A stretch of DNA of 64,000 nt. Origin: a virus. Positions 11,485 to 62,886 of the stretch are shown here, in pieces; within the stretch, counting starts at the first letter, position 1, and every line of letters begins with the position of its first letter. The stretch lies in the UHGV virus genome UHGV-1378817; one strand, written 5' to 3'. The notes beneath the pieces were generated by a model. It was given only the letters and a program-made list of their open reading frames with translations, made no database searches and was not told the origin of the DNA. The translations under genes were made by a program, and so were the position numbers.

Positions 11485-11488
11485 AATT

Positions 11489-12021: not shown

Positions 12022-12039
12022 GGTGGATTTTATCATAGC

Positions 12040-13559: not shown

Positions 13560-13810
13560 AGGTGCCTTCTTGTCCGTTTCCACACATAAACTTCATCCAA
13601 GCTCGCGCGGGAGACTCTCAACCGACTCCTTACGGCGCTGGCAAGCTTTCGTCGGTGGTCCACATCAGTGCTCGGCCTTTGGCCTGCGCTATCGCTTCGC
13701 TCCCACACATGTTAACAGACCTGCATGTATGCACTTCTGTTATTGTGTGCACCAGGGAGGCCCGGCATCTCGCCCCTCGTAGGCGAGTGCCAATGAAGGG
13801 CCGACACTAC
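13560..13810. other. GC-rich ORF-poor structured segment (candidate ncRNA)
   Basis: About 250 bp of high GC in an AT-rich genome; hairpins such as GGCC-ttt-GGCC and CGCC-cctcgtag-GCG; the two ORFs called here overlap in different frames and lack SD. Confidence 0.3.
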
Positions 13811-13947
13811 CCATAGTAAGTAATAAATTTAAAACATGGTACTTAGGATCTAGTATATTCTACATAAGTTAAGTATATGTACTTAGTACCATAAGTACTA
13901 GATCTTTTATTTTTTATTATTTAGTTATTTTAGTTATATTCTTTATG

Positions 13948-14028
13948 TGTCCGTATCACGGACAGTTAGTGTCCGTATTACGGGCAGATGTGTCCGCGTG
14001 ACGGACAGTAGTGTCCGTATCACGGACA
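13948..14028. promoter_or_regulatory. array of four 17-bp palindromic operator-like sites (TGTCCGT-N3-ACGGACA)
   Basis: Sites at 13948-13964, 13970-13986, 13991-14007, 14012-14028; 21-22 bp centre-to-centre; sites 1 and 4 identical. Confidence 0.5.
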
Positions 14029-14103
14029 GTTACTAACCTCTGTTCCATAGCGAACATAAAACATACGAATCCTTATAGTACAGATATTTAAGTTTTTACT
14101 GGT

Positions 14104-14454
14104 CTAACCAGTTGTTGACATTCGAATAACCTCTTCTGGTGGCAAAACTTTGGAAAATGTGCATCTTTTACCTCTCCCTTGTGTGGATATTTCAACCACT
14201 CCTGCACATTCTAAAGTTTTAACGCACGCTGCTGCTTTTGTTTTCTTTATCCCAACATCTGCTGCAATTTTCCTTGTGCTGGGTGTGAAGCGTGAACTTC
14301 CTCCAAGCTTATACCAGTTGTGCAGGTAGCAGTATACGATCTTGTCATACAAGTCAAGAACAACAACCTCCCCAGTTGTGTCATTCAAAACTTTTGACAT
14401 AGACAGTATTTCAAGGGGGACTTTAAGATATAGCAGCTTATCCCCATCTTTCAT
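14104..14454 (-). CDS. hypothetical protein (possible DNA-binding protein)
   Basis: 116 aa basic ORF immediately upstream (on minus strand) of the palindrome array. Confidence 0.4.
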   Translation of the reverse strand: MKDGDKLLYLKVPLEILSMSKVLNDTTGEVVVLDLYDKIVYCYLHNWYKLGGSSRFTPSTRKIAADVGIKKTKAAACVKTLECAGVVEISTQGRGKRCTFSKVLPPEEVIRMSTTG

Positions 14455-14501
14455 ATCTCCTGATTCTCCTTGTGTGGCAATTTTCTTTAAAATAGCAGGG
14501 A

Positions 14502-15056
14502 TTACTCCCCGCTGTCAATAGCAAGACTCATTGCAATACTGTATGCCTCTTCTAATGGTAAGAGTCTACCCCACACATCCCAACCGACATCAAACTGCCT
14601 GCCAAACAACTGTTGTGTGGTTCCGTGAGCATGACCGAACAGTTGTACTGATCCGTGAGGCTTTCTGTTCCACTTTGCAAACTGGTAATGGCTCATACAG
14701 ATCAAATTCTTGTTGTGGCGAAGCTCGTAATAATCTACAACCTCATGATAGAACTCTTTCATAATTCTGACAGTCGTCCTTGTGTCATGGTTGCCACGAA
14801 CAAGAATAATATGTCCGTTCAACATATTTAGAATATCTGGAAGTAAGTTGTTGATATTTTTATCAGTAGTGCACGCAATATCTCCCAAGTGGAACACAGT
14901 GTCTGCAGGTGACACAACAGAGTTCCACTCGGCGATGATTCCCGCATTCATACTGTCAAGATTGTGATCATACTGAGATCTGTGTTTTTGACATGAATCA
15001 AACTCCATGACCCGCTGGTGGAGAAAGTGTGTGTCGCTTGTTACAAAGTATTTCAT
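14502..15056 (-). CDS. calcineurin-like metallophosphoesterase (candidate 2',3'-phosphatase/phosphoesterase)
   Basis: ORF track trimmed to ATG 15056 (MKYFVTSDTHF...) with GAGGA SD; motifs SDTHF (D-x-H), LGDIA (GD), GNHD, GHAHG. Confidence 0.7.
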   Translation of the reverse strand: MKYFVTSDTHFLHQRVMEFDSCQKHRSQYDHNLDSMNAGIIAEWNSVVSPADTVFHLGDIACTTDKNINNLLPDILNMLNGHIILVRGNHDTRTTVRIMKEFYHEVVDYYELRHNKNLICMSHYQFAKWNRKPHGSVQLFGHAHGTTQQLFGRQFDVGWDVWGRLLPLEEAYSIAMSLAIDSGE

Positions 15057-15063
15057 ACATTCC

Positions 15064-15474
15064 TCATTTAAGTTTAATGCAGTTTTTAAGCTGGCGTTCC
15101 ATACGATCCACAACCCTGTCTGGAACATCATGAATGCTTTTATTACCGTGTCGGTTTTCAACCACGATTACGGTATAATTATACCCATGGCTGATTGCCA
15201 TGTCAACATATTCTTGCACATGTTTTTCTTTTGTAAACGTATTACTTACCACGATACGGTCGTATCCCATACGCATCATATCTTCTACGTTATCTTTGCA
15301 CCATTTTGCTGCAAGTGTTACTTTACTTGCATCCCAGTTGTAATTGCCGTCATCGTCGTACCAGAACATGTCGTTCTCAAAATGTGGATACAGACCTTCT
15401 AAAGATAGCGCATTTGCCAGTGTTGATTTGCCAGACCCTGGTAGACCACGCACGATATATAGCATTTTAGACAT
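15064..15474 (-). CDS. polynucleotide kinase-like P-loop kinase
   Basis: Trimmed to ATG 15474 (MSKMLYIV...) with GGAGG SD; Walker A GLPGSGKST; layout resembles T4 Pnk kinase domain (IVVSNTF..., VPDRVVDRM). Confidence 0.6.
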   Translation of the reverse strand: MSKMLYIVRGLPGSGKSTLANALSLEGLYPHFENDMFWYDDDGNYNWDASKVTLAAKWCKDNVEDMMRMGYDRIVVSNTFTKEKHVQEYVDMAISHGYNYTVIVVENRHGNKSIHDVPDRVVDRMERQLKNCIKLK

Positions 15475-42545: not shown

Positions 42546-42779
42546 ATGAAAGTTAAATTTCTTACAGATTTAGGGTACCCTTCCTTGGTTGACTGTGTTG
42601 GTAAAATTGTGGAAGCAAAACGGCTATCTGCAAACGAGAATGTTGTCCTGGTTAAAGGGAAGGATTTACTAGCTGCAGGTGCAGAGTCTGGCAGGATCTC
42701 TCCTGATTATATGTATTACCTATCTTTAAGTAATCTGCCAGAGCGAGGCGGTAAAGGCCTTGAAGTTGTGGAGGAGTGA
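42546..42779 (+). CDS. small protein, paralog family A (MKVK...G.DL[IL]AAGA...VEE)
   Basis: Shares N-terminal MKVKFL, central KGKDLLAAGAESG and C-terminal EVVEE with 46201 and 46418 ORFs. Confidence 0.45.
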   Translation: MKVKFLTDLGYPSLVDCVGKIVEAKRLSANENVVLVKGKDLLAAGAESGRISPDYMYYLSLSNLPERGGKGLEVVEE

Positions 42780-45920: not shown

Positions 45921-46204
45921 TAATGAAAAAGATTAACAGTAGTGAAGTCGAGTTTAAACTTGTCGGAAAAGGCACTTACTGGGAAGTTCGTCAAAAGGTA
46001 TATTTGTTCGGTCTTATTCCTTACTGGTCTAAATTCTACTGGGGAGCTAACGAGTGGGGAAGATACGCCACCAAATCAATGGCACTTATTGGTATAGCAG
46101 AGTACATTGCAGCCAGAGATAGGGTTGGAGACACTTATTACTATACTGCGGACGATATTCGTAACAGTGTTTACGTCCCACAACCACCTGATGGAGACCG
46201 TTGA
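45917..46204 (+). CDS. hypothetical protein
   Basis: 95 aa; ATGA overlap. Confidence 0.4.
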   Translation: MIMKKINSSEVEFKLVGKGTYWEVRQKVYLFGLIPYWSKFYWGANEWGRYATKSMALIGIAEYIAARDRVGDTYYYTADDIRNSVYVPQPPDGDR

Positions 46205-46428
46205 TGAAAGTTAAAGTTTTAGATTCAAGCTTCTATATTGGTCAGGAGCCCTTAGTGGGGAAAGTGTTTACTGCTGTCCCTAACGAAGATTACCCCGACC
46301 TTTTAAAAATAAAAGGGGCAGATCTTATTGCCGCTGGTGCATCTCAGGAATGCTTTGACAGTCAGTGGACCTACAACTTTGCCCTAGGTGAGGATGTAGA
46401 GATAGTGGAGGACAATCATGAAGGTTAA
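46201..46428 (+). CDS. small protein, paralog family A
   Basis: MMKVKVL...KGADLIAAGASQE...VEIVED; paralog of 42546 and 46418. Confidence 0.45.
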   Translation: MMKVKVLDSSFYIGQEPLVGKVFTAVPNEDYPDLLKIKGADLIAAGASQECFDSQWTYNFALGEDVEIVEDNHEG

Positions 46429-46672
46429 AATTCTTGATTCTAACGTCTACTTGGGACAATCCTTCCTGAAGGGAAAAGTCGTTCCTGCGGTATACTTTGA
46501 AGGGTTGCCGTGGGATGATCCTGTTCGGCAACATCACAGTTATGTAGGCCACAACGTAGTGTTTATCTTAGGAGCAGACCTGATCACCGCTGGTGCACCT
46601 GAATATTATTTCGGGGAAGAGTCCTATTATGCCTTTGGGGTAGGGTCAGATGCAGATATTGTAGAGCTGTGA
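46418..46672 (+). CDS. small protein, paralog family A
   Basis: MKVKIL...LGADLITAGAPEY...DIVEL. Confidence 0.45.
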   Translation: MKVKILDSNVYLGQSFLKGKVVPAVYFEGLPWDDPVRQHHSYVGHNVVFILGADLITAGAPEYYFGEESYYAFGVGSDADIVEL

Positions 46673-46684
46673 TGGGTAACCGTT

Positions 46685-47083
46685 GTGAAAAATAAACTGT
46701 TCAAAGTTACAATGAAAATTCGCGGAGCTTGGAGCGTAAAGCAAGGGCGTATTCCAGAATTTGAGAAAGACTTCTACGTAGTCTCCACCTCGGAGGAGGC
46801 TGCATGCTGGCAAGCTGGCTATGCCTATGCAAGAACCTGGTACGAAGGATACCAGACTGGGGGCTATGACGGAGAAATTATCAGCAAGAGTGTAGAAGAA
46901 ATTAATGTGTTGACAAGTGAAAAAGTTTTTGTTATAGTGCATCCAGATTCCAGAGTGAAGCATTACTGGAATGCCAGAACAAAAACTTGGACACCGTTTG
47001 CAGATTCTGCTACGCCACTTTTAAACCAGAAAGCTCTTGACTCTGCCCCAAGTTATGGGGTTGTTGAAGAAAAGCTAAACTGA
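46685..47083 (+). CDS. hypothetical protein, paralog family B
   Basis: Paralogous to 48894-49289 (FVIVHPDSRVKHYWNARTKTWTP vs FVMRHPHSNIAYYWDVLNNEWTP); GTG start. Confidence 0.45.
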   Translation: MKNKLFKVTMKIRGAWSVKQGRIPEFEKDFYVVSTSEEAACWQAGYAYARTWYEGYQTGGYDGEIISKSVEEINVLTSEKVFVIVHPDSRVKHYWNARTKTWTPFADSATPLLNQKALDSAPSYGVVEEKLN

Positions 47084-47100
47084 AACAGTGAGGTGCCACT

Positions 47101-47391
47101 ATGATGGATTTAGTTCTGAATATTGATAACGCAGGAGAGCTTAAAGACGATGGTGTAACAAGTATGGACAAACCCTGCTCTGCCGAGGTTGACTCAAAAT
47201 GGACCTACAAGTTTGACGGAGAGATCTTCGCAAATGATGAGAAGGTTGTAGATGCTGCAGCCATTTTGAACGCTTTAGGGTACGACCCTGTGAATTCTTT
47301 GATCAAGGATCCTGTTGAGTTTGCAGAGTATGTTCGAAAAATGGCAGATCTTGCTGTAGATATTTTAAGAACTATCGACAACAAGCTATAA
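47101..47391 (+). CDS. hypothetical protein
   Basis: 96 aa acidic ORF. Confidence 0.4.
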   Translation: MMDLVLNIDNAGELKDDGVTSMDKPCSAEVDSKWTYKFDGEIFANDEKVVDAAAILNALGYDPVNSLIKDPVEFAEYVRKMADLAVDILRTIDNKL

Positions 47392-47396
47392 AACTG

Positions 47397-47425
47397 TTGA
47401 CACAACGCTTCGGCTATAGTATTAT
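47397..47425 (+). promoter_or_regulatory. sigma70-like promoter upstream of hpf-like gene
   Basis: TTGACA, 17-nt spacer, TATTAT. Confidence 0.6.
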
Positions 47426-47474
47426 TGTTTTCAAAGAGAGATAGTTATTCCCTCTTCCTTAAAAGGAACACGTT

Positions 47475-47795
47475 ATGCAAATTGAAATCACTGGCAACAA
47501 TGTAGAAATCACAGAAGGTATGGTATCTTTTATTTCCCGCAAAATGTCCAAGCTGGAGCGTTTACATCCCTCTGTTAACTATGCACGTGTGAGTGTAAAA
47601 GTTGAAAATGATCACCAGGAAGTTATGGCGTTCATTTTTGACAATTCTGGAAAAGAAGTTATTGCCAAGGCTAAAGGCAGTGATGCTTACGAGGCAACTG
47701 ACCGTATGGTAGATGTTGCAGCACGTCAGCTGGCTAAATGCGGTGGAAAGAAAGGTAAGGGGAAAGGCAAAGTAAAGATTGACTTTGGAGAATGA
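47475..47795 (+). CDS. hpf: ribosome hibernation promoting factor / RaiA-like protein
   Basis: N-terminus MQIEITGNNVEITEGM...KLERL...VKVE close to E. coli HPF/RaiA as recalled; Lys/Gly-rich C-terminal tail. Confidence 0.7.
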   Translation: MQIEITGNNVEITEGMVSFISRKMSKLERLHPSVNYARVSVKVENDHQEVMAFIFDNSGKEVIAKAKGSDAYEATDRMVDVAARQLAKCGGKKGKGKGKVKIDFGE

Positions 47796-47804
47796 GGTGC
47801 TACA

Positions 47805-47906
47805 ATGGGTGTGATTAAGAAATTAGTCCCAAATGTAGAGATTGCATGCTTTGAAATTATGTTTGCAATCGCAGTTGTAGTTAATGTGTTAGGTTACGGC
47901 TATTAA
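47805..47906 (+). CDS. small hydrophobic peptide (33 aa)
   Basis: MGVIKKLVPNVEIACFEIMFAIAVVVNVLGYGY; GAGGTG SD; below ORF-track cutoff. Confidence 0.3.
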   Translation: MGVIKKLVPNVEIACFEIMFAIAVVVNVLGYGY

Positions 47907-47932
47907 TATCAAATAATTGAGGAGACCTCTAA

Positions 47933-48202
47933 ATGAAAATTAAATTATTCAAAACTGAGCTGGCAGACAAAAACTGTGGACTGGTTGAAGGCATGATTGT
48001 TGAAGCACAACCAGTGGACTATATGAAGGTGGTTCGTGATGCCCTGGGTGAAGGTTTTGATCTGATGGAGCCAGCTCTGCGAGAAGATGTTATCGAGATG
48101 GCTAAAAAGCACACACCTGAAGGTTTGGTGGTGTTTGTTGCACCGGGTAACGGAGAAGAGTTGATTGTAACTCCTGATGTGTATGAGATTGTAGAGGAAT
48201 AA
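47933..48202 (+). CDS. small protein, paralog family A-like (C-terminal EIVEE)
   Basis: MKIKLFK... N-terminus and ...YEIVEE C-terminus. Confidence 0.4.
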   Translation: MKIKLFKTELADKNCGLVEGMIVEAQPVDYMKVVRDALGEGFDLMEPALREDVIEMAKKHTPEGLVVFVAPGNGEELIVTPDVYEIVEE

Positions 48203-48293
48203 TCCTACTTGGATTAGCATACTTCCTCGATAAGGAAGATCTGTAATTATTTGTGGGAAAGGAATCCCAATCTCTTACCAGAGGTGATACTAT

Positions 48294-48557
48294 ATGATTG
48301 TTTATTTTAAAACTTCAGGTGGATACCCTGATTCTCAAAGTTTGATCGGAAAAACGTGCACAGCATACTCACCTCTTGATGAGGAGGTAAGCGATATTCT
48401 ACGAAATATGTATCGGATTGACCCACAAGAAGCCTTTGATCAAAACCTTGTATTTGTCAAGGGCTCAGACATGAAGTCTTTGGGAGCATTCCCTGAAGCA
48501 GATGATGATGCCGTTTATTCGTTCATGACCCCTTTTGAAGCTATGGTTGTTGGGTGA
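48294..48557 (+). CDS. small protein, family A-like
   Basis: 87 aa; VFVKGSDMKSLGAFPE resembles the family A central motif. Confidence 0.4.
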   Translation: MIVYFKTSGGYPDSQSLIGKTCTAYSPLDEEVSDILRNMYRIDPQEAFDQNLVFVKGSDMKSLGAFPEADDDAVYSFMTPFEAMVVG

Positions 48558-48561
48558 TAAT

Positions 48562-48894
48562 ATGAAAGTACGCTTTATTGGTGAAACAATTCCTGTGCAT
48601 CTCCGGTCTCCTGAGGATTCTGCAGATCTTGCATCTCAAAAGGCGAGAGGTTATGATAAGAAAGTAACCTCAACCGATGTAGTGCTTGAGGCTACCAGTC
48701 TACCTGACCCTGCTGCATTCTTTAATCATTATGGGTACTATTTCAGCAATCTGATGAATATCGGTGAGCTTGTGTTTATCAGTGGTGGAGAGATTGTTAG
48801 CAAGCTTGGCGGCGATCCGGATGTCTTTCATGAAACCTGTCCTTTTGCATTTGTGGTAGGTTCAGATGTGGAAGTTATTGAGGAGGTGCGGTAA
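48562..48894 (+). CDS. hypothetical protein (C-terminal VEVIEE)
   Basis: Start at ATG 48562 (MKVRFIGE...); track 5' extension overlaps upstream gene. Confidence 0.4.
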   Translation: MKVRFIGETIPVHLRSPEDSADLASQKARGYDKKVTSTDVVLEATSLPDPAAFFNHYGYYFSNLMNIGELVFISGGEIVSKLGGDPDVFHETCPFAFVVGSDVEVIEEVR

Positions 48895-49289
48895 TGGTAA
48901 GCCTATACCGTGTTGAGTATAGCTCAGATACTGTATACAACGTAAGAAGCAAAGATCGCAGCGACAGAGTGCAAGAAATGTATGTTCTTGCCGACAGTCC
49001 GTTATCTGCAGCGTTCAAGGCAGGGGCTCTTGCATCTCGTTGGAAATTCGAAGGTGGATCTTTCTATGAAGAAACCCTTGAAGATTCTGTTGTTATTTCT
49101 TCTGTAGAGGTTTCAGATGACTACGAAGGGAAAAAGTTCGTAATGCGGCACCCACACAGCAACATTGCGTACTACTGGGATGTTCTGAACAACGAGTGGA
49201 CCCCAGATCTTCAGAAGGCTACTGTGCTAACACCGTTTTTGGCAGATAAGTTCCCACCAGAAGGTAATTTATCCGCACTGTTTCAGTAA
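48894..49289 (+). CDS. hypothetical protein, paralog family B
   Basis: Paralog of 46685-47083; GAGGAGGTG SD. Confidence 0.45.
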   Translation: MVSLYRVEYSSDTVYNVRSKDRSDRVQEMYVLADSPLSAAFKAGALASRWKFEGGSFYEETLEDSVVISSVEVSDDYEGKKFVMRHPHSNIAYYWDVLNNEWTPDLQKATVLTPFLADKFPPEGNLSALFQ

Positions 49290-52531: not shown

Positions 52532-52753
52532 ATGAAAATTGTTCTATACGACGATAACGATATTGCTCTCAGTACTGTATATTTTGAAGATGATGATCTG
52601 CCAGATTTTCTACGTGTCTCCACATTTGCTGCAGAATACGGTGTGAGCCGTCAGGCAATGCATAAGTACCGAGAGTATCAGAATTGCTCATGGGCTGAGA
52701 CCTTTATGCACTTTATCCAACGTAAGCAGGCTCTGGACCGCAAAAAGCTTTAA
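52532..52753 (+). CDS. hypothetical protein
   Basis: ATG 52532 with GAGGT SD (track start is far upstream). Confidence 0.4.
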   Translation: MKIVLYDDNDIALSTVYFEDDDLPDFLRVSTFAAEYGVSRQAMHKYREYQNCSWAETFMHFIQRKQALDRKKL

Positions 52754-53334: not shown

Positions 53335-53550
53335 ATGAAGATAGAAATATTTGGTGGGGCTGACAACACTCGTGGCCTGATTTACCTTGAATTTGATGAA
53401 TCATACCTGCCAGAGGTGTTAAATATAGACTCTGTTGCTGAGGCTTTGGGAGTAAACCCTAAAGAACTCCACTCTTGTGCTGAGATCGATGGTTGGGAAG
53501 AGACCATGAACATTGATTTCAGTGAAGTAGAGGACGAACCGCTGGACTGA
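53335..53550 (+). CDS. hypothetical acidic protein
   Basis: 71 aa; MKIEIFGG N-terminus; last plus-strand gene before non-coding region. Confidence 0.4.
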   Translation: MKIEIFGGADNTRGLIYLEFDESYLPEVLNIDSVAEALGVNPKELHSCAEIDGWEETMNIDFSEVEDEPLD

Positions 53551-56464: not shown

Positions 56465-56493
56465 AATATAGCAAAACTGCCGATCCCTGTCAA
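56465..56493 (-). promoter_or_regulatory. sigma70-like promoter (minus strand)
   Basis: On minus strand TTGACA, 17-nt spacer, TATATT; upstream of 55996-56415. Confidence 0.55.
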
Positions 56494-56559
56494 CCAAGGA
56501 TGGCATAATTTTTATGTGATCAAGGGGCTTTATTGCCCCTGACCATGTAACTTGTTGTA

Positions 56560-56823
56560 TTATTTGTTATTCATCCAGTTTTCCCAAGCTGCCTGATAAT
56601 CTGCCTCACTGCGGCGGATCTCTTCTTGCTCTTCAAGCCGGATCTCTTCTTCTAGGTACCCCAAGATATCGGCTTTTTTGGTCTGGCGTAACATCCAATC
56701 ATCTTTTTTACGGGTAAAGATCTTATATGCTTTCTCGCAAACCTCTTTTTTGCTACCTTTTTGGACTTCAAGAACTTTGTAGGCCATGTACTGAACTAGT
56801 TTGAGCTGATCAAGACGTTTCAT
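56560..56823 (-). CDS. hypothetical protein
   Basis: 87 aa charged ORF. Confidence 0.4.
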   Translation of the reverse strand: MKRLDQLKLVQYMAYKVLEVQKGSKKEVCEKAYKIFTRKKDDWMLRQTKKADILGYLEEEIRLEEQEEIRRSEADYQAAWENWMNNK

Positions 56824-56886
56824 GATGTTTACCTCTTTATGGGGTTCTGGTTTGGTGTGGGCCTTTTGGCCCGTGTCATTATCTTA

Positions 56887-57159
56887 TTACTTACGGCGGC
56901 AAAATTCAAGTGTTTTTAATTGATAATCTTCCTCAGCTTGGAGTACAACCGCCTCGATCATTTCGTTGGCATTGGTGAAGCCATACCCTTGAGCGAACTC
57001 ATCCGCGCCACCTTCGTGATCATGTTCTGCGTTCATCGCTTCCACAAAATGGAATTCAAGATTATTGAGGTAAGGGCTTGATGTTCCGTCCTCTTTTTCG
57101 ATGAGATCCCAGATAGCATTAAAACGTGATTCGACTTCTTGATTAATCCAGCTTGACAT
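56887..57159 (-). CDS. hypothetical acidic protein
   Basis: 90 aa ORF. Confidence 0.4.
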   Translation of the reverse strand: MSSWINQEVESRFNAIWDLIEKEDGTSSPYLNNLEFHFVEAMNAEHDHEGGADEFAQGYGFTNANEMIEAVVLQAEEDYQLKTLEFCRRK

Positions 57160-57321
57160 AATGTTTTCCTCTCTTCTGGTTGTTGTGTGGGCACTTTTGC
57201 CCCTTCAAGATAAATGATACCCCCACCACCTGGCAGATGTCAACGGTTTTTATAGTTTTTTATATAACAGGCACCCCCGGTGATTGTCTCCCCCCGTCGC
57301 CAGGTGCCTGCCGTGAAACAA

Positions 57322-57356
57322 GTATAACAAAAAACAGGACCATTGCAAGCCCTGTT
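57322..57356 (-). terminator. intrinsic terminator
   Basis: AACAGGGC-ttgcaatgg-TCCTGTT hairpin followed on minus strand by TTTTTGTTAT, after stop of 57373-57564. Confidence 0.55.
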
Positions 57357-57372
57357 TTGTAGTTTATAAATA

Positions 57373-57564
57373 TTATATTTTTTCGCCTATGTAGTCCGGT
57401 CGGTTTTTCTCTGTCATGCGCTTTAGCAATTCTTGCATGTTGCTTATGGCTTGTAGTGTATCCCCTTCCAGGCTTGAATCGACATAATCAGGATCGTCTA
57501 TGACCTTTCTATGATTATGATAACGCAGTACCGCCAATACCTTTCTAACTTGTTCGATATTCAT
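57373..57564 (-). CDS. hypothetical protein
   Basis: 63 aa ORF. Confidence 0.4.
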   Translation of the reverse strand: MNIEQVRKVLAVLRYHNHRKVIDDPDYVDSSLEGDTLQAISNMQELLKRMTEKNRPDYIGEKI

Positions 57565-57713
57565 TTTTACCGCTCTTTAAAACAAGGTGCCAACCGTTTC
57601 CAATAGATCACTAACTATCAGGACAATACTGATCAGCACATATCTAACCATAAGGGGAAAGAGCGCCAGCGATCCCGCCACAATCCCCAAGGTGATGATT
57701 ATCTTTCTCATGG

Positions 57714-57998
57714 TTAACGGTTTACGTAAGTTTTCCCGTTCACGGTTATGGGCAGATCCTCCAGGTCTGGATCTTCCTTAAGGTCGCGAGCAAGCTCACC
57801 GCACCGGATACCCTCGAATCCGTAGTACTCTGTCGTGCCGTCCTTAAAAGTTTTAGCGGCAAGGCATAAGCGATAAGTAACCCCGATTCGATTGACGGCA
57901 TGAATATCCGTTAGATTAACCTCTTTTGCCAGCTCTTTAGCCATTACAGGCGCATTAAGTCCAACAACCAGGGCAACCACTGCGATCATCTTTTTCAT
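57714..57998 (-). CDS. secreted/periplasmic small protein
   Basis: 94 aa; signal-peptide-like N-terminus MKKMIAVVALVVGLNAPVMA. Confidence 0.45.
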   Translation of the reverse strand: MKKMIAVVALVVGLNAPVMAKELAKEVNLTDIHAVNRIGVTYRLCLAAKTFKDGTTEYYGFEGIRCGELARDLKEDPDLEDLPITVNGKTYVNR

Positions 57999-58089
57999 TG
58001 TGTCTATCCTCTTTCTGCTACGTTTAAGGCGGAGGTAACCGCCTGTTTATGCTTTGTTGGTTAATTTTCGGGTATCGGTATAAATTAAA

Positions 58090-58305
58090 CTATGCTGTAC
58101 GTTCAACTATAACAACGGTTTGGGGGATCTCACCTTCCACCACTAATAAGGCCTTTTTCTGCGTGATGGATATCTTTACCCGTTGCAGCGTGGCGGTGAA
58201 GTCTTTCATTTCGTCACGTGGTGTTTTAGTGCAATACCAGATCTCAGGCTTGCCGATCTGTAAGTTGCGTAAAAATTCCGTTTTGCCTGTTTTGTTAGTG
58301 ATCAT
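58090..58305 (-). CDS. hypothetical protein
   Basis: 71 aa ORF. Confidence 0.4.
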   Translation of the reverse strand: MITNKTGKTEFLRNLQIGKPEIWYCTKTPRDEMKDFTATLQRVKISITQKKALLVVEGEIPQTVVIVERTA

Positions 58306-58314
58306 TTGCCAACC

Positions 58315-58419
58315 TCACCCGATACCGTTGGAAGACAAGATCACATTAGCCATGGTTGCAATCAGGCCAATACCCAGGGCAATAACCAGGATCACCGCAT
58401 CAATTAATTTCTGTTTCAT
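58315..58419 (-). CDS. small membrane peptide (34 aa)
   Basis: MKQKLIDAVILVIALGIGLIATMANVILSSNGIG; below ORF-track cutoff. Confidence 0.3.
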   Translation of the reverse strand: MKQKLIDAVILVIALGIGLIATMANVILSSNGIG

Positions 58420-58496
58420 GGTGTTTATTCTCTTCTGTTAGTAACCTTATTCATGGGGCCGCTACTACAGCCCCAGGGTAAGGCGGCTATGTGCTT

Positions 58497-58742
58497 TTAG
58501 TGTTTCATTCCAACCATCGCGGCACGGATCGCCGTAGTGCTGTACTTGAAGCCGTCCGGGGTCTTATCTTGTCCGGTTAGCTCCAGAAAAAGCATCATAT
58601 CCCGCGCCGCATCATTACGATTAGCATTAGCGTTAATAAAGCCTTGGGCCAACCGGTACAATGACTCATCGTTATTAATCCAAAGGCTTACATTCCAATG
58701 AGTTTTGTTTTTGTAACCGTTATAACCTTTATTGCTTTTCAT
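58497..58742 (-). CDS. hypothetical protein
   Basis: Start set to ATG 58742 (MKSNKGYNGYKNKTHW...) with AGAGGT SD. Confidence 0.4.
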   Translation of the reverse strand: MKSNKGYNGYKNKTHWNVSLWINNDESLYRLAQGFINANANRNDAARDMMLFLELTGQDKTPDGFKYSTTAIRAAMVGMKH

Positions 58743-58833
58743 GGTGTTTACCTCTTCTTTGTTCCAGGTGGCGGACCATTCCACCGCCTTATGTATTATG
58801 CTTTGTTAGATGGTTGTTTGTTGTCAAACTATT

Positions 58834-59013
58834 TTAACGATAATCATCGTACGCTTTATTAACCTGGCGAATATAACATTCAAAAGCCAGATCAATAGAT
58901 TTATATTCACGGATATATTCACCATAGGAAACCACATACATTTCTATAGCTTCCTCATATGCGAGGAGAATAGAATCTAAGCCTACGATCTCAGTCTTTG
59001 CAATAATAGCCAT
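58834..59013 (-). CDS. hypothetical small protein (59 aa)
   Basis: MAIIAKTEIVGLDSILLAYEEAIEMYVVSYGEYIREYKSIDLAFECYIRQVNKAYDDYR; GAGGATAAAAATC-ATG; below ORF-track cutoff. Confidence 0.35.
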   Translation of the reverse strand: MAIIAKTEIVGLDSILLAYEEAIEMYVVSYGEYIREYKSIDLAFECYIRQVNKAYDDYR

Positions 59014-59088
59014 GATTTTTATCCTCTTTGTGGTTGGTGGGGCTTGTTGCCCCCTTTGATTTATATACTACAGTCTTATATGGTCATG

Positions 59089-59322
59089 TCAACTATTTTC
59101 AAAAAATTTTTCTGCTGTAATATTTTTCCCGGTAGGGTTCGCTACTTTCAAAATTTTATCATGCACTGGACGCCCAAAAGAATAAGCGCCGTACACAGTG
59201 CACCAATAATCGCCGTCAGGCTGTACTATTACCGCCGCATAGGGTACGCCTTTTTCGTTTTTGCTGACAAAATAGATCACGTTGCCATTAATAGCCTCGG
59301 CGCGTTTAATTTGTTCCATCAT
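59089..59322 (-). CDS. hypothetical protein
   Basis: 77 aa ORF. Confidence 0.4.
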   Translation of the reverse strand: MMEQIKRAEAINGNVIYFVSKNEKGVPYAAVIVQPDGDYWCTVYGAYSFGRPVHDKILKVANPTGKNITAEKFFENS

Positions 59323-59378
59323 GATGATTTGCCTCTCTTTATTTTCATAATTGGGGGGCCTTTTCGGCCCAGCCAGGT

Positions 59379-59663
59379 TTATTTATTGATAGCGTGCAGC
59401 GGGAAAGGTACGCCAGGTTGATAGATAACTTTTACAACCTCATCAGGACAAAAGAAGTTGCAGAACTCACCGCAATAGGCCTCATCCTCTTTCAACTCTT
59501 CATCAATATACTCAAAAAAGTAGTCGATGCTTGGATAATCTTGCCCTGGGTTATAGTCAACCATTGTCAGGACCAGTTCAAGATCGTTGCGTAGGATATG
59601 CATACCCGCTTTTAAGTATTTTGCTTCCATTTCTACTACATCGCCAGCGGTAACAATAGCCAT
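59379..59663 (-). CDS. hypothetical protein
   Basis: 94 aa ORF; promoter-like TTGCAT/GATAAT plus G-rich hairpin upstream. Confidence 0.4.
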   Translation of the reverse strand: MAIVTAGDVVEMEAKYLKAGMHILRNDLELVLTMVDYNPGQDYPSIDYFFEYIDEELKEDEAYCGEFCNFFCPDEVVKVIYQPGVPFPLHAINK

Positions 59664-59890
59664 GGTTTTAACTCCTATCTATCCGGTTAATGATTGGGGG
59701 CCGCCCCCCTGATGAGTCCTATTATCCATATTGTAGGGCTTGATGCAAGTACTTATTTAAAAAATTTTTTAAGCGCTCCGTATGCCGTTGTAACGCCAAA
59801 ATAATAAAGGCCATGCAACCGCATAGCCTTTATGTGATTATATCGCTGCAGGCCCTGCCAGGGGCCTTATTTTGCATCATTTTACCGGAA

Positions 59891-60199
59891 CTATACAGAG
59901 AAAACATCGTTCACAATAGCGATCACAATGCCGCCCACCTTGTCACGGTCAACAATGCACAAATCACCATAAATCATGTGGTAGTCTGGATGATCTTTCA
60001 CGGAATAGTCAATGAGTGTTTTCTTGTCGTCCAGCTTTGTAACTTCCATTCTCATAACGATATGAGAATCATCAAAGGCATTATTCCGAAAAGTCATAGC
60101 CTGACCACCAGGGCACCCAGTGATCTCAACTTCCACACCGTCTACGATCTGACCATCAAAGAAATAAAGATTATTAGCCGGGATAAACATGTTTATCAC
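59891..60199 (-). CDS. hypothetical protein
   Basis: 102 aa ORF with AAGGAG SD; preceded by conserved 40-bp intergenic element. Confidence 0.4.
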   Translation of the reverse strand: MINMFIPANNLYFFDGQIVDGVEVEITGCPGGQAMTFRNNAFDDSHIVMRMEVTKLDDKKTLIDYSVKDHPDYHMIYGDLCIVDRDKVGGIVIAIVNDVFSV

Positions 60200-60240
60200 T
60201 CCTTGTTAACTGCGTGTTATTTTACCACGATTAAAATTTA

Positions 60241-60280
60241 CTTTACCGATGGCCCTGAAGTCAAGGCCATCTAAAAATAA
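60241..60280. repeat. conserved intergenic element, copy 1 (hairpin GATGGCC...GGCCATC with TTGACT in loop)
   Basis: 37/40 identical to 63961-64000; perfect 7-bp stem GATGGCC/GGCCATC enclosing TTGACTTCAG on minus strand. Confidence 0.6.
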
Positions 60281-60282
60281 AT

Positions 60283-60483
60283 TTACAGGCCTACAATCTC
60301 TTTGATTCGTTTTACTGCTGCCTCAGCGCCTTGGGGGTAGAAATTATGGTAACCGATCACGCGAGTGATACTAATCGCCGTTTGATGATCTTCATAATCG
60401 CCCTTGAAGATTTCTTGACCGTCAATCAGCACGGCAATTTTTTCTTCTTTTTTGAAGTTAATAACGCGGATATTGTTGCTCAT
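60283..60483 (-). CDS. hypothetical protein
   Basis: 66 aa ORF. Confidence 0.4.
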   Translation of the reverse strand: MSNNIRVINFKKEEKIAVLIDGQEIFKGDYEDHQTAISITRVIGYHNFYPQGAEAAVKRIKEIVGL

Positions 60484-60621
60484 TTTGTTTCTCCTTTCTG
60501 GTTTTTGTGTTGGTGGGGATTAGCTCCCCGTTGATTGTCATTATCCACATTCTGGACCGGATTGCAACACCCCGGAAGAAAAATTTTTTAAAAAGATAGG
60601 CCCCATGATCGGGGGCTGTTC

Positions 60622-60741
60622 TTAGTTACTTACTGCGATAAAGTACATCCCTACGCCTAGCAATATTTCAAGGGCGATGATCTCAAGCCATACCATAACC
60701 CGGCGCGCCTTATCGGTGCGGGGCTTATCCTTGGTTGTCAT
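60622..60741 (-). CDS. small membrane peptide (39 aa)
   Basis: MTTKDKPRTDKARRVMVWLEIIALEILLGVGMYFIAVSN; strong SD AGGAGGAAAGGGGGAG; below ORF-track cutoff. Confidence 0.35.
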   Translation of the reverse strand: MTTKDKPRTDKARRVMVWLEIIALEILLGVGMYFIAVSN

Positions 60742-60910
60742 CGTCTCCCCCTTTCCTCCTGGTAGTAGTGACGCGATCTACAATGACCCCCAGGAGTCCT
60801 ATCACGACACACATCACGAGAAAAATTATCTCCGCTGTTGTTCGGTCCATTATTATAAAAGTCCTCAAGATCAGGCCTGAAAATAAAGCTTTCGTTATTG
60901 AATCCATCAC
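60725..60910 (-). CDS. small membrane protein
   Basis: 61 aa with hydrophobic core (IIFLVMCVVIGLLGVIV). Confidence 0.3.
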   Translation of the reverse strand: MMDSITKALFSGLILRTFIIMDRTTAEIIFLVMCVVIGLLGVIVDRVTTTRRKGGDDDNQG

Positions 60911-60960
60911 GCCAGGCGGCTGGCTTCAAATCTTCATTAAAGGGATTAATTAACGTGGTA

Positions 60961-61332
60961 TTATTTAAACGGCTGGCCCACATATTTTCTATTCCTCTCA
61001 AATAGGCGATCCGCCTCAGTTAAACATATCTCATGGGCTTGATCTCTGGTTTTAGCTTCATCAAAAACCTGTTGCGCCAGGCTGCAACGTAGGGAGACTG
61101 GAAGATCACTATAATAGGCGTTGACAAACGTTTGAGCGTCGTACAGGTCTGAAAATACTTTACCCTTTCTATTATCGCCTTTGTCAACAATTGCAAGGAT
61201 AACAAGTACAATAGTTGCAACCACCCCCAGGAAAATAGATATAATAAACCATAAAAAGGCGGATCTACCTATCTTGCCAGCGATCCAGGCGTTGAACAAG
61301 GCAACTACTACAGCCAAAATAATAAATTCCAT
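60961..61332 (-). CDS. membrane protein
   Basis: Start set to ATG 61332 (MEFIILAVVVALF...) with AAAGAGG SD; two hydrophobic segments. Confidence 0.4.
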   Translation of the reverse strand: MEFIILAVVVALFNAWIAGKIGRSAFLWFIISIFLGVVATIVLVILAIVDKGDNRKGKVFSDLYDAQTFVNAYYSDLPVSLRCSLAQQVFDEAKTRDQAHEICLTEADRLFERNRKYVGQPFK

Positions 61333-61396
61333 TCTATGTACCTCTTTTGTAGTTCTGTTTAACAATAAGGCGGCAAATATGCCGCCTGTTACCTGA

Positions 61397-61777
61397 TTAA
61401 AAATTATCGCCGTAAATCTTTCCGCTTTCTACCCATACCACCACGCGAGGCATACTATCCCACACGTCTTGTTTTAGATTGAGCGCGTGCAATTCTTCGG
61501 TGGTGCTCATACCGGGCACGGGCTGATTGTATACTGCAAAACGACCGCCTGCATAATCATAGGCCAGGGTTAAATCACACTGGATCATCTTTTTGATCAT
61601 GGCATTAAGCATGGCGTTAGCCGCATATTGATCACGTTTTAAAGGCAACTCTTTGATTAGTTTGCGATAGTTTTCGATATGGTCGCACACTGTTTCACGA
61701 GGAAGATCTTTCATATCTTCACGGAATGTAACCAGGTTAAACATAACGGTGTCAATAGCCTTGGTAGTGTTTTTCAT
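61397..61777 (-). CDS. hypothetical protein
   Basis: 126 aa ORF; promoter TTGCAA/TATATT and 5' hairpin upstream. Confidence 0.4.
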   Translation of the reverse strand: MKNTTKAIDTVMFNLVTFREDMKDLPRETVCDHIENYRKLIKELPLKRDQYAANAMLNAMIKKMIQCDLTLAYDYAGGRFAVYNQPVPGMSTTEELHALNLKQDVWDSMPRVVVWVESGKIYGDNF

Positions 61778-61867
61778 GATGTTATCCTCTTTGTTTTGTG
61801 TTGGGGCAAACGTCTTGCCCCCTTGAGTTTTAATATAGCAGGTTTTTAGGTTATTGCAACACTTTAT

Positions 61868-62491
61868 TTATGAAAAAGTCATCTCACCATATTCATCGAC
61901 ATCAAACCGCCAATCATTGGCCTCGATAAGGCCGATCAGGTTTTCTGCGGTGAACTGTTCTAGATAGGCCTCCTTCAGGTCTACGTAAACCTTGCGGGAT
62001 AGCTCCCGTACCGTCTCGGTGATCAGTTCTTCCAGGTCTTCCACTTTGTTTTCTTGTTTGGCGGTCAGATCTAGCCAAGTGGTATCAATGTACCCGCTTA
62101 CAGTGTTTTCATGGCTGTAATGGCTGTACTTGTCGCGTTCAACACTGGCTGATAACTCGCCATCGTGCATTGTGCCGAACAAGTGACGAATTGATCGGAA
62201 CTTGGTCAGGGCCTTTACTTTACGCAAAAATTTTTCTAAATCCACGTTTTCAGCACTGATTGACGCGCCGTCACCCTGGCACCAAAAGCCGGACCAATGT
62301 ACTTCGGTATCTTCAAGGCCGTACTCTGGAAAGATATATTCTTTGTAGTGTTCAATTACACTTTCTGCAAAAAAGTTATCCCCGCTGTGTTCTTCTCTTT
62401 CGCGGACCATTTCAATAGCTTTTTCTTTTTGTTCGTCGGTCAGCACGTCGAAAGATAAATTGTAACCTGTGGTAATGTTAACGGTGGTCAT
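61868..62491 (-). CDS. hypothetical protein (207 aa)
   Basis: Largest gene of the block; conserved-looking HWSGFWCQGDGASI motif; own promoter. Confidence 0.45.
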   Translation of the reverse strand: MTTVNITTGYNLSFDVLTDEQKEKAIEMVREREEHSGDNFFAESVIEHYKEYIFPEYGLEDTEVHWSGFWCQGDGASISAENVDLEKFLRKVKALTKFRSIRHLFGTMHDGELSASVERDKYSHYSHENTVSGYIDTTWLDLTAKQENKVEDLEELITETVRELSRKVYVDLKEAYLEQFTAENLIGLIEANDWRFDVDEYGEMTFS

Positions 62492-62548
62492 GATATTTTC
62501 TCCTATTTTCTTTGTTAGTGGCGGGAAAACTTCCCGCCTGTGTGCTTA

Positions 62549-62576
62549 AGTATACTTATTGAGATTTACTTGTCAA
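62549..62576 (-). promoter_or_regulatory. sigma70-like promoter (minus strand) with 5' leader hairpin
   Basis: On minus strand TTGACA, 16-nt spacer, TATACT, then GGCGGGAA-gttt-TCCCGCC hairpin before SD. Confidence 0.55.
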
Positions 62577-62826
62577 CACTATTTTTTAAATTATTGTGGC
62601 GTAAAATATTCAAGATCTCTTCAACGTCATCAACACGGCGGCAATTTTTAAACGCTACCAATTGCCCCAGGATTTTAATCACTGGACGGCCTTGCCAGTG
62701 CCCTTGGAGAAAGCGCGCTTTAACTTTATCGGTGGAACTATCACGCCACCAAATAGCCTTGTTGTTGCAGTAGTAAAAATTATTCAGGATAACATCAACT
62801 TTATCAAAATTTTTTAATTTACGCAT
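62566..62826 (-). CDS. hypothetical protein
   Basis: 86 aa basic ORF. Confidence 0.4.
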   Translation of the reverse strand: MRKLKNFDKVDVILNNFYYCNNKAIWWRDSSTDKVKARFLQGHWQGRPVIKILGQLVAFKNCRRVDDVEEILNILRHNNLKNSVDK

Positions 62827-62858
62827 GGCGTTTACTCCTTTCTCTCTTTGATGTGGTT

Positions 62859-62886
62859 AGTATAGCTAACCTGTTGACGATGTCAA
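62859..62886 (-). promoter_or_regulatory. sigma70-like promoter (minus strand)
   Basis: On minus strand TTGACA, 16-nt spacer, TATACT; upstream of 62566-62826. Confidence 0.55.

What the first reader, a model, noticed from the sequence alone, without database searches (positions are those of the whole stretch)
47475..47795. Phage-encoded ribosome hibernation promoting factor (HPF/RaiA homolog) with its own consensus promoter
The N-terminal ~90 residues match the bacterial HPF/RaiA family closely (MQ.-ITG.NVEIT...KLE...V.VE), followed by a Lys/Gly-rich tail. A consensus TTGACA-17-TATTAT promoter lies just upstream. A phage HPF could freeze host ribosomes, protect ribosomes from degradation during infection, or bias translation toward phage mRNAs.
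Basis: partly seen in the sequence, partly recalled or inferred. Interest (0 to 1): 0.65.

Follow-up and report, generated by a model that had tools for sequence, protein, structure and literature searches.

The report
Phage-encoded ribosome hibernation factor homolog
This is the well-known hpf-like gene of rV5-type E. coli phages, a real and strongly conserved copy of the bacterial ribosome-hibernation protein; it has been annotated since 2006 and tested once in 2019, and what it does during infection is still unknown.

Summary
Window 47475-47795 (+) encodes a 106-aa protein that passes the curated cut-offs of Pfam Ribosomal_S30AE and NCBIfam TIGR00741. It is 43% identical to E. coli HPF and 25% identical to RaiA. 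Its predicted fold superposes on ribosome-bound E. coli HPF at 1.1 A. A TTGACA-17-TATTAT promoter lies at 47397-47425.

It is not new. The window is a Vequintavirus (rV5-like) genome. The rV5 GenBank record already annotates this ORF (ORF144, "sigma 54 modulation factor") and this promoter (P144). Mizuno et al. 2019 expressed the rV5 protein in E. coli and found it neither in salt-washed 70S/100S ribosomes nor affecting 100S levels. That test is inconclusive, because salt washing strips bound factors.

This analysis adds four points:
- The gene is present in all 118 matching phage records and in a divergent sister lineage.
- It is under strong purifying selection (dN/dS 0.02-0.06), the tail included.
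- It keeps 6 of 9 family-conserved basic positions but has lost R17, K80 and K89, plus several other residues reported to contact the ribosome or E-site tRNA.
- The end of helix 2 is replaced by a disordered Lys/Gly tail.

The best reading is a modified, probably weaker occupant of the 30S decoding channel that modulates host ribosome hibernation, perhaps in a RaiA-like way. This is unproven.

The parts
47397..47425 (+). Sigma-70-type promoter (TTGACA, 17-nt spacer, TATTAT). It corresponds to promoter P144 in the rV5 GenBank record.
   Evidence: Consensus scan gives 11 of 12 matches. It is annotated as P144 in DQ832317. The -35 block AAACTGTTGACAC and the -10 position are conserved in Murica, rV5, an IMG/VR contig and the divergent lineage L005.
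47426..47474 (+). 5' untranslated leader with an AAGGA Shine-Dalgarno sequence at 47463-47467, 7 nt before the ATG. Relatives have a small purine/pyrimidine hairpin here that is degenerate in this window.
   Evidence: Sequence read directly. Folding z-score is -0.5 in the window, -0.5 in rV5 and -2.5 in L010, so structure in the window is not supported.
47475..47795 (+). hpf-like CDS: 106 codons plus the stop codon.
   Evidence: ORF list. PF02482 and TIGR00741 scores are above their cut-offs. The protein is 100% identical to those of phages MaxBurger, slur16, naswa and others. dN/dS against relatives is 0.02-0.06.
47475..47741 (+). Folded HPF core, residues 1-89: beta1 2-8, alpha1 14-30, beta2 34-44, beta3 47-56, beta4 61-68, alpha2 71-89.
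   Evidence: AlphaFold2 model with pLDDT blocks of 85-95 across the core. Foldseek places it on 6h4n_x (ribosome-bound E. coli HPF) at rmsd 1.1 A. It retains K23, K26, R29, E44, D76, R84 and K88, and has lost the equivalents of E. coli R17, K80, T53, H55, Y30 and R33.
47742..47792 (+). Disordered polycationic C-terminal tail, residues 90-106 (GGKKGKGKGKVKIDFGE). It replaces the basic C-terminal end of helix alpha2 of E. coli HPF (K89, K91, K93, H95).
   Evidence: pLDDT is below 50 for residues 91-106. Net charge is +4 and the K+G fraction is 0.71, against at most 0.43 in family tails of 9 aa or longer. The tail is under purifying selection inside Vequintavirus: 6 synonymous against 1 non-synonymous difference versus L010. 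It differs in the sister lineage (SKSKGIDKRTAKWDY), which is still basic and ends K-W-D-Y against K-I-D-F.

Best explanation
The gene is a host-derived, short-HPF-type ribosome hibernation factor that an ancestor of the rV5-like phages (Vequintavirus and a sister lineage) captured, probably from an enterobacterial host. It has since been kept as a core gene.

It is transcribed by unmodified host sigma-70 RNA polymerase. Transcription comes from its own promoter inside the long block of small genes that the rV5 paper groups as transcription unit 82-163.

Inferred mechanism:
- The folded core docks into the channel between the head and body of the 30S subunit, on idle ribosomes, at the site used by HPF and RaiA.
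- It holds on mainly through the retained helix-face residues, whose E. coli equivalents contact h44/h45 and the nucleotides m4C1402 and m3U1498 (K26, R29, R84; also K23 and K88).
- Contacts on the head side and with the E-site tRNA are weakened.
- The end of helix 2 has become a flexible Lys/Gly tail lying along the P/E-site mRNA path.

Because of these changes I expect two differences from host HPF. Binding should be more reversible. Behaviour should resemble RaiA more than HPF: occupying 70S or 30S in competition with host HPF/RaiA, and disfavouring RMF-dependent 100S dimer formation. The outcome would be that host ribosomes emptied by the infection stay intact and quickly reusable for phage mRNAs.

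Shown: homology, fold, conservation, selection, promoter. Inferred: ribosome binding, tail placement, direction of the effect.
For: Family membership and fold.

Origin: the nearest non-phage relatives are enterobacterial-type short HPFs, at 43-44% identity.

Core gene status: all 118 phage records that match the 2.5-kb region also carry the protein. A sister lineage has it in the same syntenic position with the same promoter block.

Selection:
- dN/dS is 0.02-0.06 (for example 31 synonymous against 6 non-synonymous differences versus L010), tail included.
- The core is 70% identical between the two lineages, while neighbouring genes range from 28 to 87%.

Pattern of residue retention:
- Positions whose E. 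coli equivalents are reported helix-face contacts (K26, Q29 to R29, D75 to D76, R83 to R84, K87 to K88), plus family-conserved K23, are identical in both phage lineages.
- Positions that depart from the bacterial consensus (53, 80, 86, 89, 60-62) also differ between the two phage lineages. This suggests part of the ribosome interface is still under constraint.

Tail direction: RaiA's longer C-terminal tail runs toward the RMF site, and RaiA blocks 100S formation. E. coli HPF's C-terminal His95 occupies the E-site mRNA position. A longer tail from the same helix end would therefore run in that direction.

Plausible benefit: a paper's abstract reports that hibernation factors protect ribosomes from ribonucleases (PMC7913689, listed).
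Against: The only experiment is negative. rV5 HPF expressed from pBAD24 was detected in the crude extract but not in purified 70S/100S ribosomes, and 100S levels did not change (PMC6375957).

Three of nine family-conserved basic positions are lost together (R17, K80, K89). None of 73 non-phage family representatives lacks all three, and only 6 of the 73 retain as few as 6 or less.

Residues at the positions of the m2G966 / uS9-tail contacts (T53, H55) and E-tRNA contacts (R33, K93, H95) are replaced.

The protein scores well below the curated HPF equivalog cut-off (65 against 125 bits).

No expression-timing or infection data were found. The placement of the tail and the RaiA-like outcome are pure inference.
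Confidence: 0.45

Rival explanations
1. Classical HPF action used for host shut-off. [quoted passage not shown] This is the first reader's leading idea.
For: The sequence is clearly closer to HPF than to RaiA. The gene has a host-type promoter suited to expression by unmodified host polymerase. The fold is retained, along with several positions equivalent to decoding-centre contacts.
Against: Expression in E. coli produced no visible change in 100S and left 70S profiles normal. The HPF-specific C-terminal helix end (K89, K91, K93, H95) and the E-tRNA contact R33 seen in the 100S structure are not conserved. RMF is unstable in growing cells, so there would be no partner in exponential hosts. 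A global ribosome block would also stop phage translation unless there is a selectivity mechanism, and nothing here points to one.
Confidence: 0.15
2. Anti-hibernation decoy. A deliberately weak binder whose tail excludes RMF and whose core displaces host HPF/RaiA. It would be easily displaced in turn by initiation factors, mRNA and tRNA. The net effect would be to wake or keep awake ribosomes of slow-growing or stationary hosts, or of hosts driven into RMF-linked dormancy by a defence system. This was essentially proposed by Mizuno et al. 2019.
For: Several high-affinity contact positions are lost while the fold and purifying selection are retained. The tail is longer than that of HPF and points the way RaiA's RMF-blocking tail does. 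The protein is absent from salt-washed ribosomes, which fits weak binding. A review reports that RMF rises in DRT2/Neo-mediated dormancy. The proposal itself is quoted.
Against: There is no direct evidence for binding, competition or any phenotype. This idea overlaps heavily with the best explanation and differs only in the sign of the net effect on translation. Basic tails of similar length are common in bacterial family members (18 of 73 have a tail charge of +4 or more, median tail length 16 aa), so the tail alone does not imply a new activity.
Confidence: 0.2
3. Exaptation away from the ribosome. The HPF-like (dsRBD-like) fold has been repurposed to bind another RNA, a nucleotide signal or a host protein. 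Phage Acb4 sponges, whose fold resembles HPF, would be a precedent.
For: The protein was not found on purified ribosomes. It shows an unusual joint loss of R17, K80 and K89, and both phage lineages share new residues (V17, H31-P32, a one-residue insertion in the beta3-beta4 hairpin, and the K65-A-K67 patch). The Acb4 paper notes structural similarity between a phage nucleotide sponge and V. cholerae HPF 4HEI.
Against: Clear sequence homology to HPF remains (43% identity). The residues kept invariant between the two phage lineages include positions whose E. coli equivalents are the rRNA-contacting basic residues (K26, R84, K88). No alternative ligand pocket or oligomer interface was tested or seen. 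The protein has no hit in PADLOC. The Acb4 similarity is at fold level only and was not tested here.
Confidence: 0.12
4. A decaying passenger gene with no function.
For: Phage Murica carries a 1-nt deletion that frameshifts the tail, and one metagenomic variant also has a frameshifted tail.
Against: dN/dS is 0.02-0.06. The gene is present in every matching phage record and in a sister lineage, with a conserved promoter. The isolated frameshifts lie in homopolymer runs and may be sequencing errors.
Confidence: 0.02

Closest known systems
E. coli / enterobacterial short HPF (YhbH; PDB 2RQL, 4V8H, 6H4N; NCBIfam NF007780)
   Same: [quoted passage not shown] Identity is 43% over 92 aa. The N-terminus is nearly identical (MQ-I-ITGNNVEITE). 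K23, K26, E44, D75, R83, K87 and K91 equivalents are retained. It is a single-domain protein with no dimerisation domain.
   Different: It scores 65 bits against the equivalog cut-off of 125. It lacks R17, Y30, R33, T53, H55, K80, K89, K93 and H95. It has a one-residue insertion in the beta3-beta4 hairpin. Helix 2 ends at residue 89 with Gly-Gly and continues as a 17-aa disordered Lys/Gly tail, where E. coli HPF has a 7-aa basic end. It is encoded by a lytic phage behind a sigma-70 promoter, not in the rpoN operon. The one published test found no 100S promotion.
E. coli RaiA (YfiA / protein Y; PDB 1N3G, 4V8I; NCBIfam NF007654)
   Same: Same fold and the same expected binding site. It has a C-terminal extension beyond HPF length (106 aa against 113 aa). 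RaiA's extension is what heads toward the RMF site. RefSeq names the phage protein "RaiA".
   Different: Identity is only 25%. It scores 23 bits against a cut-off of 158. RaiA's tail is acidic at its end (net charge -3), whereas the phage tail is polycationic (+4), and the two tails share no sequence similarity.
rV5 ORF144 / gp144 (ABI79209), the HPF studied by Mizuno et al. 2019, Nat Commun 10:752
   Same: The same gene, 97-98% identical at protein level. Same promoter (P144) and same genomic position.
   Different: The window's allele has one extra Asn (GNNVEIT against GNVEIT) and two substitutions (R22/H22 and V34/A34). It is identical to the allele of the Vequintavirus murica-type phages (MaxBurger, slur16, naswa).
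HPF-like genes of other phages (Cronobacter phage GAP32, Xanthomonas jumbo phage XaC1; PHROG 8990)
   Same: Phage-borne PF02482 proteins. Together they show that capture of hibernation factors by large phages is recurrent.
   Different: They are independent acquisitions. The window protein sits in its own PHROG (12469, E=1e-69) and matches PHROG 8990 only weakly (E=1e-7). XaC1 is 34% identical to E. coli HPF.

Membership tests
HPF/YfiA (RaiA) superfamily: Pfam PF02482 Ribosomal_S30AE, NCBIfam TIGR00741 | Sequence score above the curated family cut-off | tested here: met
   PF02482: 56.7 bits against 23.7. TIGR00741: 56.8 bits against 40.9.
HPF/YfiA (RaiA) superfamily: Pfam PF02482 Ribosomal_S30AE, NCBIfam TIGR00741 | [quoted passage not shown] | tested here: met
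   The AlphaFold2 core has pLDDT above 90 with elements E2-8, H14-30, E34-44, E47-56, E61-68 and H71-89. The top 35 Foldseek PDB hits are all HPF, RaiA or pY structures.
HPF/YfiA (RaiA) superfamily: Pfam PF02482 Ribosomal_S30AE, NCBIfam TIGR00741 | Conserved basic residues that contact 16S rRNA (E. coli numbering 17, 23, 26, 29, 80, 83, 87, 89, 91) | tested here: inconclusive
   6 of 9 are retained (K23, K26, R29, R84, K88, K92). Lost are R17 to V, K80 to V and K89 to G. Among 73 non-phage representatives, 67 retain at least 7 and none lacks all three.
HPF/YfiA (RaiA) superfamily: Pfam PF02482 Ribosomal_S30AE, NCBIfam TIGR00741 | Binds the 30S decoding channel of non-translating ribosomes | not testable with these tools
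   The published test on the rV5 ortholog was negative: it was not found in 70S/100S after a 0.5 M NH4Cl cushion, using late-exponential cells. The conditions were not decisive.
Gammaproteobacterial short HPF (equivalog NF007780) | Score at or above the equivalog cut-off (125 bits) | tested here: not met
   65.2 bits.
Gammaproteobacterial short HPF (equivalog NF007780) | About 95 aa, with helix 2 running into a basic C-terminus (K89, K91, K93, H95) that contacts the E-tRNA and G693 | tested here: not met
   Helix 2 ends at C89-G90-G91. H95, K93 and K89 are not conserved. A 17-aa disordered tail takes their place.
Gammaproteobacterial short HPF (equivalog NF007780) | Promotes RMF-dependent 100S formation | not testable with these tools
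   Mizuno et al. saw no effect on 100S formation. No rmf-like gene was looked for systematically in the phage.
RaiA / YfiA (equivalog NF007654) | Score at or above the equivalog cut-off (158 bits) | tested here: not met
   22.8 bits. 25% identity.
RaiA / YfiA (equivalog NF007654) | C-terminal extension that reaches the RMF site and blocks 100S formation | tested here: inconclusive
   An extension of comparable length is present (17 against 25 residues after helix 2). It is unrelated in sequence and opposite in charge. Its path on the ribosome could not be tested.
Long HPF (Gram-positive type, with C-terminal dimerisation domain) | C-terminal dimerisation domain of about 60 aa | tested here: not met
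   The protein is 106 aa, with no second domain in the Pfam scan or the model.
Acb4-type phage nucleotide sponge (dsRBD-like fold) | Sequence or structure membership, plus an oligomeric ligand pocket | not tested
   This is only a lead from the literature: Acb4 resembles HPF 4HEI in fold. No Acb4 sequence or model was available to compare.

The most novel reading that the evidence does not exclude
The rV5-type HPF may not be a hibernation factor in the usual sense. It could be an anti-hibernation or counter-dormancy decoy: a weakened decoding-channel binder whose polylysine tail blocks RMF. It would displace host HPF/RaiA, yet be readily evicted by initiation on phage mRNA. This would let the phage exploit ribosomes of starved gut E. 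coli, or escape RMF-linked dormancy triggered by defence systems.
Probability: 0.2. Interest if true: 0.65.

Novelty: already known. Interest (0 to 1): 0.25.

Why it matters
Large lytic coliphages of one genus have kept a host-derived ribosome-hibernation protein under tight selection. This means control of the idle-ribosome pool matters to them, probably when they infect slow-growing or starved gut E. coli.

The gene, its promoter and the idea have all been in the public record for years, and one inconclusive experiment exists. The open question is functional, not one of discovery.

The residue-level picture assembled here gives concrete constructs for a proper low-salt binding and deletion study:
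- the helix (body-side) face is retained;
- the head-side and E-tRNA contact positions are changed;
- the helix end is turned into a selected polycationic tail.

It also shows that the RefSeq name "RaiA" and the old name "sigma 54 modulation factor" both mislead.

Tried and rejected
(1) Word-indexed homolog search. It returned only 5 close phage variants and was useless for placing the family. The exhaustive representative search was needed.

(2) First structure-prediction attempt. I re-ran it without them.

(3) Polikanov 2012 paper (PMC3377384). It is not held. Contact residues were taken instead from the Beckert 2018 preprint and a 2025 bioRxiv structural survey.

(4) Possible regulatory hairpin or SD-sequestering switch in the 5' leader. 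The window and rV5 folds are no better than shuffled sequence (z about -0.5), and only one relative reaches z = -2.5. Rejected as unsupported.

(5) Second "sigma 54 modulation factor" annotated next door in some relatives (homolog of window 47933-48202). It has no Pfam hit. The label traces to a propagated BLAST description. Rejected as annotation noise.

(6) Defence-system membership. No PADLOC hit.

(7) Rfam scan of the window. Only tRNAs were found, and nothing near hpf.

(8) "Recent transfer from the host", as suggested in the literature. Identity to E. coli HPF is only 43%, and the phage clade forms its own 50%-identity cluster. The capture is therefore old, or the gene has evolved fast since.

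(9) IMG/VR scan. It gave only two more rV5-like copies, plus three unrelated hits at 25% identity that were not pursued.

(10) Literature searches for any functional follow-up after 2019. None was found in the held library.

Full report
**What is there**

Window 47475-47795 (+) is an ATG-initiated ORF of 106 codons. An AAGGA Shine-Dalgarno sequence precedes it by 7 nt. A TTGACA-17-TATTAT sigma-70-type promoter lies at 47397-47425, in the 83-nt gap after the upstream ORF.

The protein passes the curated cut-offs of two family models:
- Pfam PF02482 Ribosomal_S30AE: 56.7 bits against 23.7.
- NCBIfam TIGR00741, HPF/YfiA family: 56.8 bits against 40.9.

Its best PDB sequence matches are E. coli HPF chains, at E about 4e-15. 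Against E. coli K-12 proteins taken from NC_000913.3, it is 43% identical to HPF and 25% identical to RaiA.

An AlphaFold2 model built on a 75-sequence alignment has core pLDDT above 90. [quoted passage not shown] Foldseek superposes it on ribosome-bound E. coli HPF (6h4n_x) at 1.1 A, and the top 35 hits are all hibernation factors.

**Where it comes from, and whether it is new**

The surrounding 2.5 kb is 97-98% identical to more than 100 Vequintavirus (rV5-like) coliphage genomes. The protein is found in 118 phage records, and 9 listed records carry it at 100% identity.

The rV5 GenBank record DQ832317 annotates this ORF as ORF144, "sigma 54 modulation factor". It also annotates the very same promoter as P144. 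Later records call the gene hpf, ribosome hibernation factor or RaiA. The rV5 genome paper reports 33 sigma-70 promoters and places the gene in transcription unit 82-163 (PMC3606486).

Mizuno et al. 2019 (PMC6375957) listed the rV5-group HPFs and expressed the rV5 protein from pBAD24 in E. coli. They found its peptides in crude extract but none in purified 70S/100S ribosomes, and they saw no effect on 100S. Mathieu et al. 2020 note the gene in five further rV5 phages.

I found no later functional work in the held library. The finding is therefore already known. Only the function remains open.

**How strong is the negative experiment?**

Cells were harvested at the end of exponential phase, and ribosomes were pelleted through 0.5 M NH4Cl. 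High-salt washing is the standard way to remove ribosome-associated factors. Host RMF is unstable in growing cells, and RMF and HPF leave ribosomes as soon as conditions improve. The authors themselves list growth phase and salt stripping as possible causes. The result lowers confidence in tight binding but does not exclude ribosome binding.

**Evolutionary status**

An exhaustive search of 1.84 billion cluster representatives put the phage protein in a single 50%-identity cluster (representative P0004). The next relative is an enterobacterial-type HPF at 44% identity, E=6e-10.

P0004 comes from contigs of about 125-137 kb with the same gene order (ClpP-like protease upstream, strings of small ORFs). 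These represent a divergent rV5-like lineage that is absent from the cultured-phage collection. In that lineage the HPF core is 70% identical to the window's, while neighbouring genes range from 28 to 87%. The promoter block AAACTGTTGACAC, followed 17 nt later by a -10 element, is conserved there too.

Within Vequintavirus, pairwise dN/dS is 0.02-0.06. One comparison gives 31 synonymous against 6 non-synonymous differences. The tail alone gives 6-7 synonymous against 1 non-synonymous. This is a maintained core gene and not a decaying passenger.

**Residue-level comparison**

In a 76-sequence alignment, nine positions are basic in 77-97% of 73 non-phage members. In E. coli numbering these are 17, 23, 26, 29, 80, 83, 87, 89 and 91.
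- The phage keeps six: K23, K26, R29, R84, K88 and K92.
- It has V, V and G at positions 17, 80 and 89.
- Only 6 of the 73 non-phage sequences keep 6 or fewer, and none lacks all three of these positions.

Cryo-EM descriptions list K80, R83, K87, K89 and K91 among the conserved basic contacts of helix 2. They also list T53/H62 as the m2G966 contacts, H55/E60 as the uS9-tail contacts, K26/Q29/Y30 as the contacts near m3U1498 and A790, R33/K93 as the E-tRNA contacts, and H95 as stacking on G693. In the phage, T53 becomes F, H55 becomes F, Y30 becomes L, R33 becomes S, and the stretch carrying K89, K93 and H95 is replaced.

The retained positions lie on the helix face, whose E. coli equivalents face h44/h45, m4C1402 and m3U1498. 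These are identical in both phage lineages. The departures lie on the sheet face (toward h31 and the uS9 tail) and at positions 80, 86 and 89. These also differ between the two lineages (F53/R53, I63/M63, V81/T81, A87/V87, G90/S90). My reading is that one half of the ribosome interface is still under constraint and the other half is relaxed. That is an inference.

**The tail**

Helix 2 ends at C89-G90-G91. It is followed by GGKKGKGKGKVKIDFGE, net charge +4. The corresponding tail is KDKLKQH (+2) in E. coli HPF and a 25-residue tail (net -3) in RaiA.

Tail length is not unusual for the family: the median is 16 aa, and 18 of 73 members have a tail charge of +4 or more. The Lys+Gly content of 0.71 is unusual, since family tails of 9 aa or longer reach at most 0.43. 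The sister lineage has a different basic tail that ends K-W-D-Y, against K-I-D-F here.

E. coli HPF's C-terminus lies in the E-site mRNA position, and RaiA's longer tail heads toward the RMF pocket. The phage tail would plausibly lie along the same path. This could not be tested.

**Mechanism**

I commit to the following, at moderate confidence. The protein is a modified decoding-channel occupant of idle host ribosomes that competes with host HPF and RaiA. It is likely to bind more reversibly than host HPF. It is more likely RaiA-like (70S-bound, disfavouring RMF-dependent 100S) than a promoter of 100S. The benefit to the phage would be an intact and quickly reusable ribosome pool.

The rivals are:
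- classical HPF-type shut-off of host translation;
- a pure anti-hibernation decoy, which is Mizuno's suggestion;
- exaptation to a non-ribosomal ligand, prompted by the Acb4 sponge's fold resemblance to HPF;
- no function, which the selection data effectively exclude.

**Naming**

By curated thresholds the protein is a member of the HPF/YfiA superfamily. It is neither an HPF equivalog (65 against 125 bits) nor a RaiA equivalog (23 against 158 bits). The RefSeq name "RaiA" and the historical name "sigma 54 modulation factor" should both be read as family labels only.

**The promoter**

The promoter is real as a motif, conserved, and already annotated. It is also one of 27 TTGACA-N16-18-TANNNT sites in the window, against 2.8 expected by chance. 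This matches the rV5 paper's view that the phage relies on host sigma-70 polymerase throughout. No terminator separates hpf from the upstream genes, so the gene is probably also read through from upstream promoters.

**Verdict**

Novelty is "already known". Interest is low to moderate (0.25), because the gene has been in the public record for years and only the functional question is still open and tractable.

Noticed in passing
window 42546-42779, 46204-46428, 46418-46672, 48562-48894; 46712-47083 and 48894-49289; 52532-52753 and 53335-53550: hpf sits inside an array of tandemly duplicated small-ORF families. The paralogs are 27-42% identical. None of the ten neighbours tested has a Pfam hit. 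Their function is unknown, and they may be early or host-takeover genes.
   Followed up: partly
whole window, e.g. 38101, 39493, 43106, 44943, 46910, 47397, 52854 (+ strand); 11622-15206 and 56465-62886 (- strand): Strong enrichment of sigma-70 consensus promoters: 27 TTGACA-N16-18-TANNNT sites against 2.8 expected. They are arranged in divergent strand blocks, consistent with transcription by host RNA polymerase throughout.
   Followed up: partly
window 10996-11094 (-), within the tRNA cluster 10751-11563: An odd 99-nt tRNA-like gene lies among six normal tRNAs (Pro, Met, Thr, Ser, Tyr, Arg). ARAGORN could not assign it (four-base anticodon 'atcc'), and Rfam tRNA scores only 35.5 bits. It may be intron-containing, long-armed or degenerate.
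   Followed up: no
window 47933-48202 (+), and hpf itself in relatives: Annotation noise in public records. The homolog of this 89-aa ORF is labelled 'sigma 54 modulation factor' in phages naswa and navn although it has no Pfam hit. The hpf gene itself is labelled 'ATP-dependent protease La' in several records.
   Followed up: yes
window 46500-49000 against GenBank MG0656xx records: Eighteen unannotated records named 'Campylobacter phage' are about 98% identical to rV5-like coliphages across this region. The host label looks doubtful.
   Followed up: no
window 47496-47501 and 47754-47762; L014 (Murica): Allelic variation within the genus. There is a 3-nt indel (GNNVEIT here against GNVEIT in rV5). 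Phage Murica has a 1-nt deletion in the GGGGAAAGG run that frameshifts the Lys/Gly tail, which may be a sequencing error.
   Followed up: partly
window 47779-47806 (+): A second promoter-like site (TTGACT-16-TACAAT with an upstream TG, 10 of 12 matches) overlaps the last codons of hpf. The divergent lineage also has a TTTACA-type site just after its hpf. The 33-aa hydrophobic ORF at 47805-47906 starts inside the -10 element.
   Followed up: no
L005-L008 (metagenome contigs and E. coli assembly GCA_012894635.1, contig of 136,793 bp): A divergent rV5-like phage lineage, with hpf 64-70% identical and syntenic neighbours 28-87% identical. It has no representative in the cultured-phage collection searched.
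   Followed up: partly
window 47432-47460; L001 3960-3990; L010 1460-1490: The hpf leader contains a purine run and a pyrimidine run (AAAGAGGG ... CCCTCTT). These form a 7-9 bp hairpin in rV5 and an IMG/VR relative, but the hairpin is degenerate in this window. The pyrimidine run resembles an anti-SD sequence. The fold is not statistically supported here.
   Followed up: partly
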